Below are positions 1 through 4,145 of a DNA stretch of 5,943 bases, one piece after another. Each line of letters opens with the position of its first letter. Position 1 is the stretch's first letter. The notes beneath the pieces were generated by a model. It made no database searches. It worked only from the letters and a program-made list of their open reading frames with translations, and was not told where the DNA came from. The stretch is from positions 1-5,943 of the IMG/VR virus record IMGVR_UViG_2713897140_000009. One strand, 5' to 3'. This stretch comes from a virus. Lineage: Duplodnaviria > Heunggongvirae > Uroviricota > Caudoviricetes. The position numbers and the translations under genes are program-made.

Positions 1-20
1 GCCCTGGAAATACCCCACAG

Positions 21-58
21 CCCCGAAAAAGAGCCAGTCAGTTGCTTAACTGACTGGC
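21..58 (-). terminator. Rho-independent terminator-like hairpin
   Basis: Perfect 11-bp stem GCCAGTCAGTT/AACTGACTGGC (33-43/48-58) with loop GCTT; on the minus strand the stem is followed by TCTTTTTC (complement of 24-31). Confidence 0.4.
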
Positions 59-240
59 ATTAACCGTAAGGGTTGGTTTTTTCTTGGCACGAGAGTATTC
101 AAAACGCGCCAATAACTACTTGATTTAATTGAAGTCGAAAATTTTAAGTCAAAAATCGTATAGCTTAACGTGTAGCTAAAAATGTTTGCTGCAAAAGTAT
201 ACAATTTTAACCGTTATGACTCCCTGTTATCCGCTATCAA

Positions 241-1526: not shown

Positions 1527-1706
1527 TATATGTCCGGTTTGAGTGTTCAATTTTTGCGCATGTCCGGTTCACGGAAAGTGAATTTTTATATTTTTCAAAT
1601 AGTTAACTCCCAGAAAAACCGGACATGGTTTCCGAAAAATTTTCATAAATAGTGAAATTCTGCGCCGCTCCCGCCCCGTAACGGGTCCATATGCCGGAAA
1701 GGACCC
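1527..1706 (-). other. Lambda-type cos site: cosQ (1694-1706), cosN region (1662-1680), conserved cosN-proximal block (1633-1656), and three ATGTCCGGTT repeats in R-site positions (1530-1539, 1560-1569; inverted copy 1617-1626)
   Basis: Minus strand reads ACGGGTCCTTTCCGG-N14-ACGGGGCGGGAGCGGCGCAGAATTTCACTATTTATGAAAATTTTTCGG, against my recall of lambda ACGGGTCCTTTCCGG-N14-ACGGGGCGGCGACCTCGCGGGTTTTCGCTATTTATGAAAATTTTCCGG. cosQ and the cosQ-cosN spacing are identical; the 12-nt cohesive-end position reads GGGCGGGAGCGG versus lambda GGGCGGCGACCT. The three 10-bp repeats (two direct, one inverted, with an AT-rich spacer) occupy the place of lambda R3/R2/R1 but differ in sequence. Confidence 0.6.
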
Positions 1707-1736: not shown

Positions 1737-2150
1737 TCAGATGGTTTTCAGTATGCGATCGATGTCGCCGTCATCGCCCGGGTTTCTGCCATCGTATGCC
1801 ATGCCAGCTGATACGGCTTTCGGGCTGTGTATGTCCATAAAGTTTTCAAAGGCTGCGGTAAGCTCTGGTGCAACCTTCTGGCGTTCCTGCTCTATGGTCA
1901 TGCTAAGAATGCTTTTAGCCGTACCAACATCGATACAAGGCACGTTTGCCATTGCACGTAACAGCGGCTGATAGTCGCCAGATTCATCAAGCGCCATAAT
2001 CGCATCAGCGCGCGGCTTGTCCTGCTCTTCCAGTTTGTTAAGTTGATATATGGCCTCGTAGGTTGATAACCCTCTGTCAGCCATTGCCCGCGCTTCGGCT
2101 TTAAATTTACTCGCCAGCGGTAGCGCCATGATGCTTTCATTCGTTGCCAT
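1737..2150 (-). CDS. Hypothetical 137-aa protein, last gene of the capsid cassette
   Basis: ATG at 2150 with AGGGGGAA 4-5 nt upstream, starting 13 nt after the gpD-like stop, followed by a terminator. Protein-like composition; I do not recognise the family. Its position and size are similar to lambda FI, but no sequence similarity is seen. Confidence 0.6.
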   Translation of the reverse strand: MATNESIMALPLASKFKAEARAMADRGLSTYEAIYQLNKLEEQDKPRADAIMALDESGDYQPLLRAMANVPCIDVGTAKSILSMTIEQERQKVAPELTAAFENFMDIHSPKAVSAGMAYDGRNPGDDGDIDRILKTI

Positions 2151-2162
2151 CGTTCCCCCTGC

Positions 2163-2498
2163 TTATCGGGCCAGCGGCTGAACGGATACGCCAGAACCCG
2201 TAAAGGCGGCGCATTTTTTCGCATCGGTGTCGACGCTCTCAGGCCAGTTAACGGCGGCAATATTGAATATCCCCGTCTTGTAACACTGTGCTGATTTCTG
2301 CTTTGACGTGTCCACGGGGTACGCCGTCAGATAAACAGCCTTGCCAGATTCCTGACCATCCCACGCCTTAAACTCGCCATTGTCCGCCAGCATCAGCGGG
2401 GTAAATTCCTGAATAACGCCAGCATCAGCGGCAAAATGTACCAGCGTCGTGGCGACCTGCTGACTGCCTGCAAATAACTCAACATATGGAGTGCCCAT
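2163..2498 (-). CDS. Head decoration protein, lambda gpD-like (111 aa)
   Basis: TPLMLADNGEFKAWDG, YKTGIFNIAAVNWPE and KKCAAFTGSGVSV align with lambda gpD TPLMLDTSSRKLVAWDG, YKSGTFRYEDVLWPE and KKRTAFAGTAISIV. Same length class; GGGAGA Shine-Dalgarno 6 nt upstream of the ATG. Confidence 0.85.
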   Translation of the reverse strand: MGTPYVELFAGSQQVATTLVHFAADAGVIQEFTPLMLADNGEFKAWDGQESGKAVYLTAYPVDTSKQKSAQCYKTGIFNIAAVNWPESVDTDAKKCAAFTGSGVSVQPLAR

Positions 2499-2509
2499 AG
2501 AATCTCCCG

Positions 2510-3565
2510 TTAACCAATTTTGACGGTAACAAATTTGCGAATATCTGCCGGAACCGGCTGCGGTGCGCTGTGCGTCTGCACGTACTCAATCGCCGGATCG
2601 CCGTCCTCAATCCAGTTTTTCGGGTAAAACATGTTTTGCGTTGCGCCCGTTCTTACTGCGTCCTGATCCATAATCGCACCATAGGCCACCAGCCCTTTAT
2701 TGTTGGTGTTGCCCAGGACAAGCAAATCAGGCTCAAGGAAATATTTTTCGGTGCCGTCGCTGTCGGCGTATTTGCCGGAATAGACGATAAGGGCAATATC
2801 GCCCAGATAGCCTTTAAAGCTCACCACTTCGCCCAGGTTTTTACACGCCAGCTCTGCGGCGGATTCTGAACCACGGGAAAGATCGTACAGCTCGCGGAAT
2901 TTTTTAAAGCTGCGTAACGTTCGCCATACCTCAGCGCCCATAATCATGACGTTGGCGGGGCAGCTGGCCTGTTCGGCGTATAGCTCGATGTCATCTGTCG
3001 GATCATGCGTCTCTTTATTCTGCTCAGACCATTTTTTTCCTGGCCCCTGATGGACAATGCAGTTTGCCGGCATATTCCAGTCGATTTCATAGCGTTCTAT
3101 GCCTTCGCCTTCAATGATGTTTTTTCCGGTCGTGACCGCATTCACTGCCAGCCATTCCACACGCGCTTTAATGGCGTTTATCTGGCGGCGCATGTTGCCA
3201 GTAATGAGGCGCATACGTCGCCAGGTGGGGTCGTTAAGCTGTGCCGGATCTTCTCCAGCCATGCGCATAATGGTTTTTGATGGATCGATTTCGTGCTTTG
3301 GCTTCATGTAGCCGGGGCGGATAGTGCTTGTTTCGTACCCTTTATCGCGCTGAACCTGGCTACCCACCATAGGCGAACAAAACGCCGACATGGTGACTTC
3401 TTCAATATCCAGGGTATCCAGCATGATGTCCTGCGTGTTGAAGGTCGCCACGTTCGGAAAAAACAGCGACGTAAACAGCGGACTGAATCTAAAATCCGGA
3501 ACATCCTGCCGATTCAGGTACGCGAAAAGCTGGTTAGTGTTAAGAGCCGTTGCTTTACCTGCCAT
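2510..3565 (-). CDS. Major capsid protein, lambda gpE-like (351 aa)
   Basis: Multiple co-linear blocks shared with lambda gpE: FRFSPLFTSLFF vs FKFDPLFLRLFF; PGYMKPKHEIDP vs PGYVKPKHEVNP; DPTDDIELYA vs DPTDDIEAYA; YPKNWIEDGDPA vs YPKNWVTTGDPA; similar length (351 vs 341 aa). Confidence 0.92.
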   Translation of the reverse strand: MAGKATALNTNQLFAYLNRQDVPDFRFSPLFTSLFFPNVATFNTQDIMLDTLDIEEVTMSAFCSPMVGSQVQRDKGYETSTIRPGYMKPKHEIDPSKTIMRMAGEDPAQLNDPTWRRMRLITGNMRRQINAIKARVEWLAVNAVTTGKNIIEGEGIERYEIDWNMPANCIVHQGPGKKWSEQNKETHDPTDDIELYAEQASCPANVMIMGAEVWRTLRSFKKFRELYDLSRGSESAAELACKNLGEVVSFKGYLGDIALIVYSGKYADSDGTEKYFLEPDLLVLGNTNNKGLVAYGAIMDQDAVRTGATQNMFYPKNWIEDGDPAIEYVQTHSAPQPVPADIRKFVTVKIG

Positions 3566-3771
3566 TATTCACCCCCGTGAACCTGATTCATGCCCAACGC
3601 CGCACGTAAATAGGCGCGCACCTGCCAGCCTGTTGACGGCTCAACCATTGCCAGCGGATCAAGTCCTGCCGCAATGCTCGCTTTTACGTTCTGCTGGTGG
3701 CGTTCCTTGAGTGCCTCCACGATGTCGGGGCTTATGTAGACTGTAACCCCACCTTTTTTCTCTTCTGCCAT
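3565..3771 (-). CDS. Small hypothetical protein (68 aa from the ATG at 3771; track ORF extends to 3804), translationally coupled to the capsid gene
   Basis: The ATG at 3771 has AAGAGGAA about 9 nt upstream, whereas the upstream ATG at 3804 has no Shine-Dalgarno. Its TAA stop overlaps the gpE-like ATG (TAATG). Family not recognised. Confidence 0.5.
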   Translation of the reverse strand: MAEEKKGGVTVYISPDIVEALKERHQQNVKASIAAGLDPLAMVEPSTGWQVRAYLRAALGMNQVHGGE

Positions 3772-3804
3772 AGTCAGAAATTCCTCTTTGACGTTAAAAA
3801 TCAT

Positions 3805-3855
3805 AACTGGATGTTCATCCAGTTATGATTATAATCATGATTTCATATTTCGCAA
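3805..3855 (-). promoter_or_regulatory. Candidate sigma70 promoter of the capsid cassette (-35 TTGCGA at 3850-3855, 16-nt spacer, -10 TATAAT at 3828-3833) overlapping two dyad operators
   Basis: A perfect TATAAT lies inside the perfect 14-bp palindrome ATGATTATAATCAT (3825-3838). Immediately downstream is the dyad AACTGGATG-N2-CATCCAGTT (3805-3824). Prediction by eye only. Confidence 0.35.
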
Positions 3856-3930
3856 TAATATCGATCCATGTTGCAAATTATGAAATGATTTCCGGAAACA
3901 GTAGTCACCATGCTGTTAACCTCATATATG

Positions 3931-3974
3931 AAAAAGCCCGCTAAGTTTGCCTCCTGTACTTATCGGGCTTTTTT
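3931..3974. terminator. Bidirectional terminator-like hairpin (A5 - interrupted 10-bp stem - T6)
   Basis: AAAAAGCCCGCTAAGT...ACTTATCGGGCTTTTTT: stem flanked by an A-run on one side and a T-run on the other, so it could terminate on either strand. Confidence 0.35.
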
Positions 3975-4020
3975 ATCTGCCTGCAAAGGTGTCGAACAAA
4001 AAAACAATCAAAATCGACAC

Positions 4021-4064
4021 CATAAAAATAAAACCACTGTAATATCAATCCATTACAGTAGTGG
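4021..4064 (-). terminator. Terminator-like hairpin (second in tandem after the SSB gene)
   Basis: 8-bp stem ACTGTAAT/ATTACAGT (4036-4043/4052-4059) with an 8-nt loop; on the minus strand it is followed by TTTTATTTTTAT. Confidence 0.35.
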
Positions 4065-4101
4065 TGATGACGAATGAAATTTCAAAAACTAGCCTTTTTC
4101 C

Positions 4102-4145
4102 GCGCCGCTCCCGCCCCGTGGCAGGTCACTACACCGGGAGGACCC
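4102..4145 (-). other. Second cosQ/cosN-like segment, lacking the ATGTCCGGTT R-repeats
   Basis: The 18-mer GCGCCGCTCCCGCCCCGT (4102-4119) is identical to 1662-1679. It is followed after the same 14-nt spacing by a slightly degenerate cosQ (minus strand GGGTCCTCCCGG, 4134-4145). The surrounding ~75 bp is about 80% identical to 1660-1735. Confidence 0.45.

What the first reader, a model, noticed from the sequence alone, without database searches (positions are those of the whole stretch)
3565..3804. Small ORF translationally coupled to the major capsid gene
The 68-aa product (from the ATG with a good Shine-Dalgarno at 3771) ends in a TAATG overlap with the gpE-like start. In lambda the genes before E are D and the Nu3 scaffold. 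A small, coupled, charged/helical protein here could be a minimal scaffold or capsid-size determinant, or a regulator. I cannot assign a family.
Basis: inference. Interest (0 to 1): 0.45.

Follow-up and report, generated by a model that had tools for sequence, protein, structure and literature searches.

The report
Small satellite gene leading capsid operon
The small gene is real and sits at the head of the capsid operon of an E. coli phage satellite (an EcCICFT073-type island); it is most likely a small ribbon-helix-helix-type DNA-binding regulator rather than a capsid scaffold, and its function has never been tested.

Summary
A 68-aa ORF (minus strand, ATG 3771, stop 3565-3567) ends in a TAATG overlap with a lambda-E-type capsid gene. 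That junction is kept in 80 of 80 related loci, and the ORF is under purifying selection (dN/dS 0.06-0.44). The 33 bases up to 3804 are not coding.

The window is a decayed EcCICFT073-type phage-inducible chromosomal island (PICI). The ORF is the uncharacterised gene just before c1499 and belongs to phrog_3255. The family is tiny, restricted to Enterobacterales satellites, and absent from 50,697 phage genomes.

A scaffold role is unlikely:
- A Nu3-like scaffold gene already lies downstream (1737-2150).
- Two alleles only 66-68% identical sit next to capsids that are 91-95% identical.
- Sister PICIs carry the E-D gene pair without it.
- A distant homologue leads an operon with a different capsid family.

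The best reading (confidence about 0.4) is a ribbon-helix-helix (RHH)-like DNA-binding protein that feeds back on its own promoter. That promoter carries two TTGCA-N5-TGCAA dyads, a TATAAT box and a LexA-type SOS box. RHH membership stays below threshold, and DNA binding is inferred, not shown.

Interest is moderate.

The parts
3565..3771 (-). Small ORF, 68 aa (MAEEKKGGVTVYISPDIVEALKERHQQNVKASIAAGLDPLAMVEPSTGWQVRAYLRAALGMNQVHGGE). It belongs to phrog_3255 and is the gene immediately before c1499 of EcCICFT073.
   Evidence: It is conserved in length and motifs and has dN/dS 0.06-0.44.
3772..3804 (-). 5' leader, not coding. The upstream ATG at 3804 that gives the 79-aa reading abuts the operator palindrome.
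   Evidence: This extension is not conserved, and in-frame stops occur in L007. PGAP aa.
3783..3790 (-). Shine-Dalgarno sequence AAGAGGAA for the small ORF, 11 nt from the ATG.
   Evidence: it is conserved in all aligned loci.
3805..3824 (-). LexA-type SOS box AACTGGATGAACATCCAGTT (CTG-N10-CAG). It is the core of a 32-nt palindrome (3799-3830) and lies over the predicted transcription start.
   Evidence: It scores 20.2 bits with a position weight matrix (PWM) built from 18 published E. coli SOS boxes. Leave-one-out scores of the known boxes range 6.6-27.6, and the 95th percentile of shuffle maxima is 12.3. A box scoring 16-21.6 bits is present at the same place in 79 of 80 IMG/VR loci, and in the Salmonella, Pluralibacter and other lineages with different sequence.
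3828..3855 (-). Sigma-70 promoter TTGCGA-N16-TATAAT, with -35 at 3855-3850 and -10 at 3833-3828.
   Evidence: It matches 10 of 12 consensus positions, and the -10 is conserved in 79 of 80 loci.
3841..3855 (-). Proximal dyad TTGCGAAATATGAAA (family consensus TTGCA-N5-TGCAA), overlapping the -35 hexamer and the spacer.
3871..3885 (-). Distal dyad TTTCATAATTTGCAA, 30 bp upstream of the proximal dyad.
3931..3974 (-). Hairpin flanked by an A run and a T run (AAAAAAGCCCG...CGGGCTTTTT). It looks like an intrinsic terminator that insulates the operon from the replication module.
   Evidence: Read directly from the sequence and conserved in other PICIs. The consensus scan did not list it.
3989..4145 (-). 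cos-like region with a cosN-like core GGGCGGGAGCGG at 4116-4105.
   Evidence: It is 94% identical to the segment just upstream of terS in phages mEp460 and phi458.
3570..3576 (-). Strong Shine-Dalgarno sequence GGGGGTG for the capsid gene, embedded in the last codons (H-G-G-E) of the small ORF.
   Evidence: GGGGGTGA or GGAGGTGA is found in every junction listed. This explains the invariant GGE C-terminus.
2510..3565 (-). Major capsid protein, lambda gpE family, 351 aa.
   Evidence: Pfam Phage_cap_E at E 9e-50 and phrog_29.
2163..2498 (-). Head decoration protein, lambda gpD family, 111 aa.
   Evidence: Pfam HDPD at E 2.9e-17.
1737..2150 (-). Nu3-like scaffold homologue, 137 aa (phrog_1999).
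   Evidence: It matches the C-terminal part of the head-protease family phrog_53. BLASTP to residues 365-487 of an S49 gpC-like protein gives E 2e-7. tblastn hits an annotated Nu3 at E 3e-4.

Best explanation
The small ORF encodes a satellite-specific, ribbon-helix-helix (RHH)-like DNA-binding protein. It is the first product of the PICI late (capsid) operon.

Proposed sequence of events:
1. In the resting cell the promoter (3828-3855) is shut by host LexA bound at the SOS box over the transcription start (3805-3824).
2. DNA damage, the same signal that induces lambdoid helper prophages, removes LexA.
3. The operon is then transcribed: small ORF, capsid E, decoration D, Nu3-like scaffold.
4. 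The small protein, as a dimer or a dimer of dimers, binds the two TTGCA-N5-TGCAA dyads. These are centred at about -27 and -57 from the predicted transcription start. Binding feeds back on the promoter and sets the level or duration of expression. This is the arrangement seen for Arc with ant, for CopG with repB, and for antitoxin-first toxin-antitoxin operons.

The TAATG overlap lets ribosomes pass from the small ORF into the capsid gene, but the capsid gene also has its own strong SD. The small protein is therefore probably made in lower amounts than the capsid protein.

What is shown: the gene, its conservation and selection, the junction, the promoter anatomy and its conservation, and the satellite context.

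What is inferred: the RHH fold, DNA binding, the identity of the operator, and actual LexA control.
For: Fold and family:
- AlphaFold2 with a 38-sequence alignment gives pLDDT 79.7, an extended N-terminal segment, a helix at 15-34 and a helix at 47-58. This is the beta-alpha-alpha order of an RHH protomer.
- The conserved residues fit that order. V9, V11 and I13 alternate with polar T/S10, Y12 and S14, and a P45-S46-x-G48-x-x-V51-R52-x-x-L55-R56 motif sits at the start of helix 2.
- The only recurrent Pfam signal is to RHH-type families: RHH_1 and BrnA_antitoxin each in 5 of 20 members, in the right register.
- I removed the 14-16-residue insert between the helices in silico. RHH_1, BrnA or RHH_7 then become the top hit in 7 of 8 constructs. 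The match covers RHH_1 positions 2-37 of 39, with best E 0.0036.

Position:
- The gene is always the first gene after the ori/SSB module and behind the promoter.

Operator candidates:
- Two dyads 30-32 bp apart are kept in E. coli (both alleles), Salmonella, Pluralibacter, Edwardsiella and other lineages.
- A dyad TTGCG-N5-TGCAA, with a variable spacer and intact half-sites, also precedes the distant 65-aa subfamily in Enterobacter PICIs. Their downstream cargo is different: another capsid family plus a tailspike. The chance of such a site in a 280-nt upstream region is about 0.008 by my estimate.
- In the two loci checked against the gene maps (CFT073 L011; Enterobacter L099), no dyad lies upstream of alpA. 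AlpA is the known PICI activator (PMC6092414).

Allele pattern:
- The N-terminal arm and strand are identical between the two E. coli alleles, and so are the dyad half-sites. The helices have diverged.

Against a capsid-specific role:
- See the first rival explanation.
Against: - No RHH model reaches its curated cut-off. The best score is 17.6 bits against a cut-off of 20.5, and that is only after an in-silico deletion that I chose myself.
- A profile-profile comparison with an ad hoc RHH alignment gave P 0.06 over only 19 columns.
- Helix 1 plus the loop is about 12-16 residues longer than in canonical RHH proteins.
- The net charge is about -1.
- The dimer could not be modelled.
- Sister 'class 2' PICIs lack the small ORF yet have TTGC-containing repeats upstream of their capsid gene. 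These are direct repeats, TTGC-N6-TTGC-N6-TTGC, not dyads. A different factor could therefore read TTGCA-type sites.
- The dyad and the gene could travel together simply by common descent of a promoter-plus-first-gene unit.
- Tight coupling to an abundant structural gene is unusual for a regulator.
Confidence: 0.4

Rival explanations
1. Capsid-morphogenesis accessory. The small protein acts on the PICI capsid protein as a minimal scaffold, a size determinant or an assembly chaperone, in the manner of SaPI CpmB or P4 Sid.
For: - It is strictly adjacent to the E-type capsid gene with a TAATG overlap in 80 of 80 loci, and also in Edwardsiella, Salmonella and other lineages.
- It is small and largely helical, like the 72-aa CpmB (the CpmB size is from my own knowledge).
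- The distant subfamily also heads an operon that contains a capsid-like gene.
Against: - A Nu3-like scaffold gene is already present.
- There is no similarity to Nu3, gpC, the capsid protein or D beyond shuffles.
- Two alleles only 66-68% identical pair with capsids 91-95% identical, and the divergent block ends exactly at the gene boundary.
- About 39 related PICI loci have SSB-promoter-E-D without this gene.
- In the Enterobacter subfamily two other genes separate it from a capsid of another family.
- There is no homologue in 50,697 phage genomes.
- In the Pluralibacter locus the capsid gene is frameshifted while the small ORF is intact.
- EcCICFT073 DNA packaged by lambda was phage-sized, c1499 and c1500 deletions had no phenotype, and c1498-c1501 can be replaced by cargo (PMC6092414, PMC10530653).
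Confidence: 0.2
2. Helper- or host-directed effector made on SOS induction. Examples would be an antirepressor acting on a helper repressor, or a modulator of LexA, with the variable C-terminal two-thirds as the specificity determinant.
For: - The gene is the first gene behind a conserved SOS box.
- The two E. coli alleles differ in a sharply bounded cassette (3560-3707) with dS about 0.9, whereas the flanks are about 90% identical. This is the pattern of a specificity module.
- Small LexA-controlled antirepressors are known (phage 186 Tum and the Gifsy antirepressors, from my own knowledge). A small phage protein that binds LexA is also known (GIL01 gp7, PMC4551915).
Against: - There is no sequence or fold similarity to any such protein.
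- The Edwardsiella and Enterobacter members lack the SOS box.
- The conserved part of the protein is the strand-plus-helix pattern typical of DNA binders.
Confidence: 0.15
3. Packaging accessory. The protein is a small DNA-binding protein that marks the adjacent cos site for the helper terminase.
For: - In this window a cos-like region lies about 220 bp upstream, and a second one lies downstream of the module.
- In phages mEp460 and phi458 the gene that follows this cos segment is terS.
Against: - In CFT073 and many other islands the upstream cos is absent and a PerC gene sits there instead.
- Packaging specificity in these islands is already explained by Rpp (c1503) (PMC6739421).
- Islands with c1498-c1501 replaced by cargo still give transducing lysates (PMC10530653, PMC10460865).
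Confidence: 0.08
4. A leader ORF with no function of its own, kept only to deliver ribosomes to the capsid start.
For: The TAATG overlap is universal, and the C-terminal GGE is fixed by the capsid SD sequence.
Against: - dN/dS is 0.06-0.44.
- Length and internal motifs are conserved across genera at 35-65% identity.
- The capsid gene has its own strong SD.
- Class 2 PICIs express E without any leader ORF.
Confidence: 0.05

Closest known systems
Arc of phage P22 (Pant-arc-ant) and CopG of pMV158 (copG-repB): small RHH repressors encoded as the first gene of the operon they repress
   Same: - It is a small protein of 45-70 aa.
- The predicted order is strand-helix-helix.
- It is the first gene directly behind a promoter that carries symmetric repeats overlapping the -35 hexamer.
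- It is closely followed by the operon's payload gene.
   Different: - No significant sequence or structural match was found.
- The insert between the helices is about 14-16 residues longer.
- DNA binding is untested.
- The payload is a capsid gene.
- The promoter also carries a LexA box.
c1498-c1501 module of EcCICFT073, the model Gram-negative cos PICI (PMC6092414, PMC6739421, PMC10530653)
   Same: - It is an orthologous gene: the CFT073 copy is 92% identical in DNA and 94% in protein.
- The order is the same: small ORF, capsid (c1499), decoration (c1500), 137-aa protein (c1501).
   Different: - This copy lacks the PerC gene upstream and has an mEp460-type cos there instead.
- Its terS/Rpp region is truncated, and IS elements interrupt the island.
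- The small ORF was never cloned or tested on its own. The interference screen started at c1499, with a forward primer that lies inside the small ORF.
SaPI operon I, the LexA-controlled packaging and morphogenesis operon of staphylococcal PICIs (Ubeda et al. 2007, cited in PMC6092414)
   Same: A satellite's late, capsid-related operon lies behind a LexA box, which ties it to the SOS signal that induces the helper.
   Different: - The genes are unrelated.
- LexA control here is predicted from sequence only.
- SaPI operon I has no known RHH leader gene.
SaPI1 CpmB (gp6) and P4 Sid, satellite capsid-size determinants
   Same: Satellite-encoded proteins associated with capsid genes or capsid function. 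CpmB is similar in size and is helical.
   Different: - There is no homology.
- There is no mimicry of the scaffold C-terminus.
- There is no co-variation with the capsid.
- No small capsids were seen for the model island.

Membership tests
Ribbon-helix-helix superfamily (Pfam RHH_1 PF01402 and relatives) | Domain of about 45 aa with the order beta-strand, helix A, helix B | tested here: met
   The AlphaFold2 models show an extended N-terminal segment to residue 14, a helix at 15-34 and a helix at 47-58, with pLDDT 78-80. Helix A plus the loop is about 12-16 residues longer than is canonical.
Ribbon-helix-helix superfamily (Pfam RHH_1 PF01402 and relatives) | Significant match to a curated RHH family model | tested here: not met
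   For the native proteins the best RHH_1 hit is E 0.064 at 13.7 bits against a cut-off of 20.5, and the best BrnA hit is E 0.017. With the insert removed in silico the best hit is E 0.0036 at 17.6 bits, covering model positions 2-37 of 39, still below the cut-off. hhalign against an ad hoc RHH alignment gave P 0.06.
Ribbon-helix-helix superfamily (Pfam RHH_1 PF01402 and relatives) | Structural similarity to solved RHH proteins | tested here: inconclusive
Ribbon-helix-helix superfamily (Pfam RHH_1 PF01402 and relatives) | Obligate homodimer with a two-stranded intersubunit sheet that reads the DNA major groove | not testable with these tools
Ribbon-helix-helix superfamily (Pfam RHH_1 PF01402 and relatives) | Binds repeated or dyad operator sites, usually in its own promoter | not testable with these tools
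   Candidate sites exist and are conserved. Binding itself needs an experiment.
Lambda Nu3 / gpC C-terminal scaffold | Homology to the Nu3 / gpC C-terminal region | tested here: not met
   The small ORF gives no hit. The neighbouring 137-aa protein does meet this feature.
Satellite capsid-size determinants (SaPI CpmB, P4 Sid) | Interaction with the capsid, expected to show as co-variation with the capsid protein or mimicry of the scaffold C-terminus | tested here: not met
   Alleles 66-68% identical pair with capsids 91-95% identical. There is no local similarity to scaffold proteins beyond shuffles. No small capsids were seen in the model island (PMC6092414).
EcCICFT073-type Gram-negative PICI (the context of the gene) | Gene order int, alpA, primase or rep, ori, then a late module with a phage-like capsid gene and cos sites; about 10-15 kb; inserted at a chromosomal att site | tested here: met
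   The full island sits at tRNA-Pro next to yejM in the source strain. The orthologous islands in CFT073, IHE3034 and O157:H7 have the same order. Primers published for c1499-c1504 map onto the CFT073 locus.
LexA (SOS) regulon promoter (applies to the promoter, not the protein) | A 20-bp CTG-N10-CAG box matching the E. coli consensus and overlapping the core promoter | tested here: met
   The site scores 20.2 bits, against 6.6-27.6 for 18 known boxes, and lies directly after the -10 hexamer. It is conserved in 79 of 80 loci and in other genera with different sequence. LexA binding itself was not tested.

The most novel reading that the evidence does not exclude
The small protein could be a satellite-specific switch that combines two signals at the late promoter. 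LexA would report DNA damage, and the small protein's variable helical cassette would report which helper (or helper protein) is present. The PICI would then build its own E/D/Nu3-type shell only with the right helper. The two E. coli alleles would be helper-specificity types. This could also explain why the capsid module shows no phenotype with the laboratory helpers lambda and phi80.
Probability: 0.12. Interest if true: 0.65.

Novelty: new member of a known kind. Interest (0 to 1): 0.38.

Why it matters
EcCICFT073-type islands are the model for Gram-negative phage satellites and are being engineered as delivery vehicles. Yet their capsid module (c1498-c1501) has no known function or known regulation. 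In the papers I read it is treated as replaceable cargo space.

If the first gene of that module is its regulator, and the promoter is under LexA control, several things follow:
- It gives a concrete and cheap way to find out when the module is switched on, and with which helpers.
- It gives a direct parallel to the LexA-controlled operon I of staphylococcal islands.
- It provides a compact SOS-responsive, self-limiting promoter cassette for synthetic PICIs.

If the protein is not a regulator, it is still a conserved orphan carried by about 11% of complete E. coli genomes.

Tried and rejected
Searches that found no assignment:
- Direct sequence and profile searches of the PDB found nothing for the single sequence and only a spurious GCN4-fusion hit at E about 1 for the profile.
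- NCBIfam and PADLOC gave no meaningful hit.
- tblastn against 50,697 phage genomes found no match at E <= 1.
- A profile search of 1.84 billion representative proteins found only 13 proteins, all of the same small family. An iterated search added a 65-aa Enterobacter subfamily but gave no link to a named family.

- The afdb50 fold library was not available.
- Two scans of genome contigs returned pattern matches but no tblastn-confirmed locus. I used the look-up of encoding contigs and IMG/VR instead.

Ideas tested and dropped:
- The region 3989-4145 as a captured late promoter read by the helper Q antiterminator: rejected. It aligns with the cos segment between the lysis genes and terS of mEp460 and phi458.
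- The 32-nt palindrome as the small protein's own operator: set aside in favour of a LexA box.
- The dyads as helper-repressor operators: no cluster of the motif in phage phi458.
- AlpA as the dyad reader: in the two loci checked against their gene maps (L011, L099), no dyad lies upstream of alpA.
- The 79-aa reading: rejected.
Full report
**What is in the sequence**

All genes of the window lie on the minus strand. The ORF at 3565-3804 can be read as 79 aa from the ATG at 3804, or as 68 aa from the ATG at 3771. Its TAA stop (3567-3565) shares its last A with the ATG of the next gene, giving TAATG.

That next gene (2510-3565, 351 aa) belongs to the lambda gpE capsid family, with Pfam Phage_cap_E at E 9e-50. 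It is followed by two more head genes:
- a gpD-type decoration gene (2163-2498, HDPD at E 2.9e-17);
- a 137-aa gene (1737-2150).

The 68-aa start is the real one, for three reasons:
- PGAP annotates 68 aa in four genomes.
- The 11-codon extension is not conserved between homologues.
- In the Salmonella locus the extension contains in-frame stops.

The SD sequence AAGAGGAA (3790-3783) is conserved but sits 11 nt from the start. The capsid gene has its own stronger SD, GGGGGTG (3576-3570). It lies inside the last codons of the small ORF, which explains why the protein family always ends in G-G-E.

**Is it a real gene?**

Yes.
- The DNA occurs in 607 of 5426 complete E. coli genomes, always annotated as 'hypothetical protein' overlapping 'major capsid protein'.
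- In 80 IMG/VR loci found with the protein family, the TAATG junction is present in 80 of 80, and a 351-aa capsid ORF follows in 77 of 80.
- Pairwise dN/dS between eight loci is 0.06-0.44 wherever synonymous sites are not saturated.
- Homologues from Salmonella, Edwardsiella, Pluralibacter, Enterobacter and unnamed assemblies keep the length and a set of motifs: V9, V11, I13, V18, L21, G36, P45-S46, G48, V51-R52 and L55-R56.

**Where it comes from**

The window matches E. coli chromosomes at 99.9% identity. In the source strain it is part of an island at tRNA-Pro next to yejM. The gene order is integrase, AlpA-type regulator, Icd-like, DUF4222, P4-type primase, an 85-aa gene, SSB, the small ORF, capsid, decoration and the 137-aa gene.

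This is the layout of the Gram-negative phage-inducible chromosomal islands (PICIs). The orthologous island in strain CFT073 is the model element EcCICFT073. The published cloning primers for c1499-c1504 map onto that locus and identify:
- c1499 as the capsid gene;
- c1500 as the decoration gene;
- c1501 as the 137-aa gene;
- c1503 as RppA.

The small ORF is the gene immediately before c1499, so it is presumably c1498.

What the literature says about this module:
- Deleting c1499 or c1500 gave no phenotype, and EcCICFT073 DNA packaged by lambda was phage-sized (PMC6092414).
- Islands in which c1498-c1501 are replaced by cas9 or melA still give transducing lysates (PMC10530653, PMC10460865).
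- The interference screen cloned genes from c1499 onwards, and the c1499 forward primer lies inside the small ORF. The small ORF has therefore never been tested alone.

I found no paper that assigns it a function.

**Family searches**

- The protein belongs to PHROG 3255, 'unknown function'.
- It has no tblastn match in 50,697 phage genomes, even at E <= 1.
- It has no sequence match in the PDB, and no meaningful hit in NCBIfam or PADLOC.
- A profile search of 1.84 billion representative proteins returned 13 proteins.
- An iterated search returned 64 clusters, all from Enterobacterales and all 'hypothetical'.

It is a small, satellite-restricted family.

**Why a scaffold or size determinant is unlikely**

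1. The scaffold slot is already filled. The 137-aa protein matches the C-terminal part of the head-protease/scaffold family phrog_53. It also matches residues 365-487 of a gpC-like S49 protein at E 2e-7 and an annotated Nu3 at E 3e-4.
2. The small protein shows no similarity to that protein, to gpC, to the capsid protein or to D beyond shuffled controls.
3. E. coli islands carry two alleles of the small protein that are only 66-68% identical. The capsid, decoration and Nu3-like proteins beside them are 91-99% identical. The divergent block is sharply bounded at 3707-3560, which is codons 22-68, and it ends at the gene boundary.
4. A capsid-led scan found about 39 sister PICI loci with capsids 55-56% identical. 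They have SSB upstream and D downstream but no small ORF at all.
5. A distant subfamily (65 aa, 35-44% identical) sits in Enterobacter PICIs as the first gene after the RepA-type helicase and its iteron-like repeats. There it is followed by two other small genes, a capsid-like protein of a different family (phrog_617) and a tailspike. What is conserved is the position at the head of the post-ori operon, not the partnership with gpE.
6. In the Pluralibacter locus the capsid gene is frameshifted while the small ORF is intact. This is a single case and therefore weak evidence.

**Evidence for an RHH-type DNA-binding protein**

AlphaFold2 with 20 sequences gave pLDDT 78 and the order strand, helix 15-34, helix 47-58. 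With 38 sequences it gave pLDDT 79.7. The first 14 residues were then extended rather than folded back, as expected for the unpaired strand of an RHH protomer.

In the strand, invariant hydrophobic residues (V9, V11, I13) alternate with polar ones (T/S10, Y12, S14). Helix 2 starts with an invariant P-S-x-G followed by V-R-x-x-L-R.

The Pfam signal:
- The only recurrent Pfam hits are to RHH-type families: RHH_1 and BrnA_antitoxin, each in 5 of 20 members and always in the same register. All are below the curated cut-offs.
- I removed the 14-16 residues between the helices in silico. RHH_1, BrnA or RHH_7 then became the top hit in 7 of 8 constructs. RHH_1 was covered from position 2 to 37 of 39, with best E 0.0036 at 17.6 bits against a cut-off of 20.5.
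- That test used boundaries I chose myself, so it is suggestive only.

Overall the signal is consistent but sub-threshold. The dimer could not be modelled.

**The promoter**

Between SSB and the small ORF, read on the minus strand, the window holds these elements in order:

| Element | Coordinates | Source |
|---|---|---|
| cos-like segment, with cosN-like core GGGCGGGAGCGG at 4116-4105 | 4145-3989 | 94% identical to the DNA just upstream of terS in mEp460 and phi458 |
| Terminator-like hairpin | 3974-3931 | |
| Distal dyad TTTCATAATTTGCAA | 3885-3871 | |
| Proximal dyad TTGCGAAATATGAAA, overlapping the -35 TTGCGA | 3855-3841 | |
| -10 TATAAT | 3833-3828 | |
| 20-bp palindromic box AACTGGATGAACATCCAGTT | 3824-3805 | |

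The box fits the E. coli LexA consensus CTG-N10-CAG and is close to the ruvA box CGCTGGATATCTATCCAGCA. I scored it with a matrix built from the 18 SOS boxes tabulated in PMC3009722.
- The box scores 20.2 bits.
- The known boxes score 6.6-27.6 when each is left out in turn.
- The 95th percentile of the best score in shuffled windows is 12.3.
- A box of 16-21.6 bits is present at the same place in 79 of 80 IMG/VR loci.
- Salmonella, Pluralibacter and other lineages have boxes of 17.7-21.9 bits. Their sequences differ, and in two cases the position is shifted.
- The box is absent in the helper-embedded Edwardsiella island and in the Enterobacter subfamily.

The two dyads, 30-32 bp apart, are kept in every lineage that has the 67-74-aa form of the protein. 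A TTGCG-N5-TGCAA dyad, with a variable spacer and intact half-sites, precedes the 65-aa subfamily. In the two loci I checked against their gene maps (CFT073, L011, and Enterobacter, L099), no such site lies upstream of alpA. There is no cluster of the motif in phage phi458.

**Model**

The operon is probably silent under LexA and opens on SOS induction, the signal that also induces lambdoid helpers. Its first product is an RHH-like protein. The most economical reading is that this protein binds the dyads over the -35 hexamer and upstream of it and feeds back on the promoter. Arc does this at Pant, and CopG does it at the copG-repB promoter (established knowledge of those systems).

The weaker SD of the small ORF, compared with that of the capsid gene, fits a regulator made in smaller amounts than the structural protein.

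The fold, DNA binding, the identity of the operator and LexA control are all inferred.

Two caveats apply:
- The class 2 islands lack the protein yet have TTGC-N6-TTGC-N6-TTGC direct repeats upstream of their capsid gene. Another factor could therefore read TTGCA-type sites.
- The dyad and the gene could be linked simply by common descent.

I put this model at about 0.4. The rivals are:
- a capsid-assembly accessory, 0.2;
- an SOS-timed effector aimed at the helper or at LexA, suggested by the bounded variable cassette, 0.15;
- a cos-binding accessory, 0.08;
- a pure leader ORF, 0.05.

**Verdict**

The gene is an uncharacterised, satellite-specific member of what is probably a well-known fold and regulatory design, set in a model mobile element. 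Interest is moderate. The gene and its SOS-box promoter give a testable handle on a PICI module that has had no function for years, but nothing here is categorically new.

Noticed in passing
window 3805-3824 (minus strand), and the same position in L002, L007, L009, L096, L184-L186 and 79 of 80 IMG/VR loci: A LexA-type SOS box lies directly after the -10 hexamer of the capsid-operon promoter (20.2 bits; known E. coli boxes score 6.6-27.6). It is conserved across genera with different sequence. This parallels the LexA control of SaPI operon I. The Gram-negative PICI papers I read do not mention it.
   Followed up: yes
window 4105-4116 and 1665-1676 (minus strand), within the cos-like regions 3989-4145 and about 1640-1710: Two directly repeated cos-like sites with the same cosN-like core GGGCGGGAGCGG bracket the capsid module, 2440 bp apart. 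The upstream one is 94% identical to the pre-terS segment of phages mEp460 and phi458. The phi458 annotation lists no lambda E/D-type head genes; a 652-aa 'putative protease' follows the portal gene. The downstream one is lambda-like (CTATTTATGAAAATTTT follows it). EcCICFT073 is reported to have two cos sites.
   Followed up: partly
window 1737-2150 (minus strand): The 137-aa 'hypothetical' protein (c1501 orthologue) is a homologue of the Nu3 / gpC C-terminal scaffold. The island therefore encodes capsid, decoration and scaffold proteins but no portal or protease.
   Followed up: yes
window 3560-3707 and 2958-3077: Two sharply bounded variable cassettes distinguish otherwise roughly 90-100% identical islands. 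One covers codons 22-68 of the small ORF (two alleles, 66-68% identical in protein). The other is a patch inside the capsid gene, with at least three types.
   Followed up: partly
L143-L183 (IMG/VR), about 100 nt upstream of the capsid start, e.g. L145 1388-1415: Sister PICIs with SSB-promoter-E-D but no small ORF carry three direct repeats, TTGC-N6-TTGC-N6-T(T/C)GC, upstream of the capsid gene. They have no LexA box. The spacing is that of the lambda CII recognition repeat (from memory). This was not tested further.
   Followed up: no
L095, L099-L103 (Enterobacter PICIs next to fis/dusB): A 65-aa subfamily of the small protein leads an operon of a 55-aa coiled-coil protein, a 66-aa protein, a 315-aa capsid-like protein (phrog_617) and a tailspike or tail-fibre gene. 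GTGAGGAG iteron-like repeats lie just upstream.
   Followed up: partly
window 1-65, 1380-1451 and the right end; L001 17988-19114: This copy of the island is decayed. It has an IS4 fragment at the left end and a truncated Nu1-type terS fragment (1380-1451). In the source genome an IS110-family element splits the primase gene just beyond the window.
   Followed up: partly
L005 (Edwardsiella) and L096 (Salmonella): These islands are embedded in lambda-like prophage head regions, next to a truncated portal gene and next to FI/FII/Z/U genes respectively. This fits the published helper-embedded PICI type. The Edwardsiella one has perfect dyads but no LexA box.
   Followed up: no
L011 2799, L012 955, L013 1058, L002 17123: One further conserved copy of the dyad motif (TTGCCATACCTGCAA) lies in the early region between alpA and the Icd-like genes of several islands. 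Its significance is unknown.
   Followed up: no
L011 7498-7746, L012 5126-5398, L007 5482-5760: Many islands, but not this window, carry a PerC-family regulator gene immediately upstream of the small-ORF promoter, in the place where this window has its cos-like segment.
   Followed up: no
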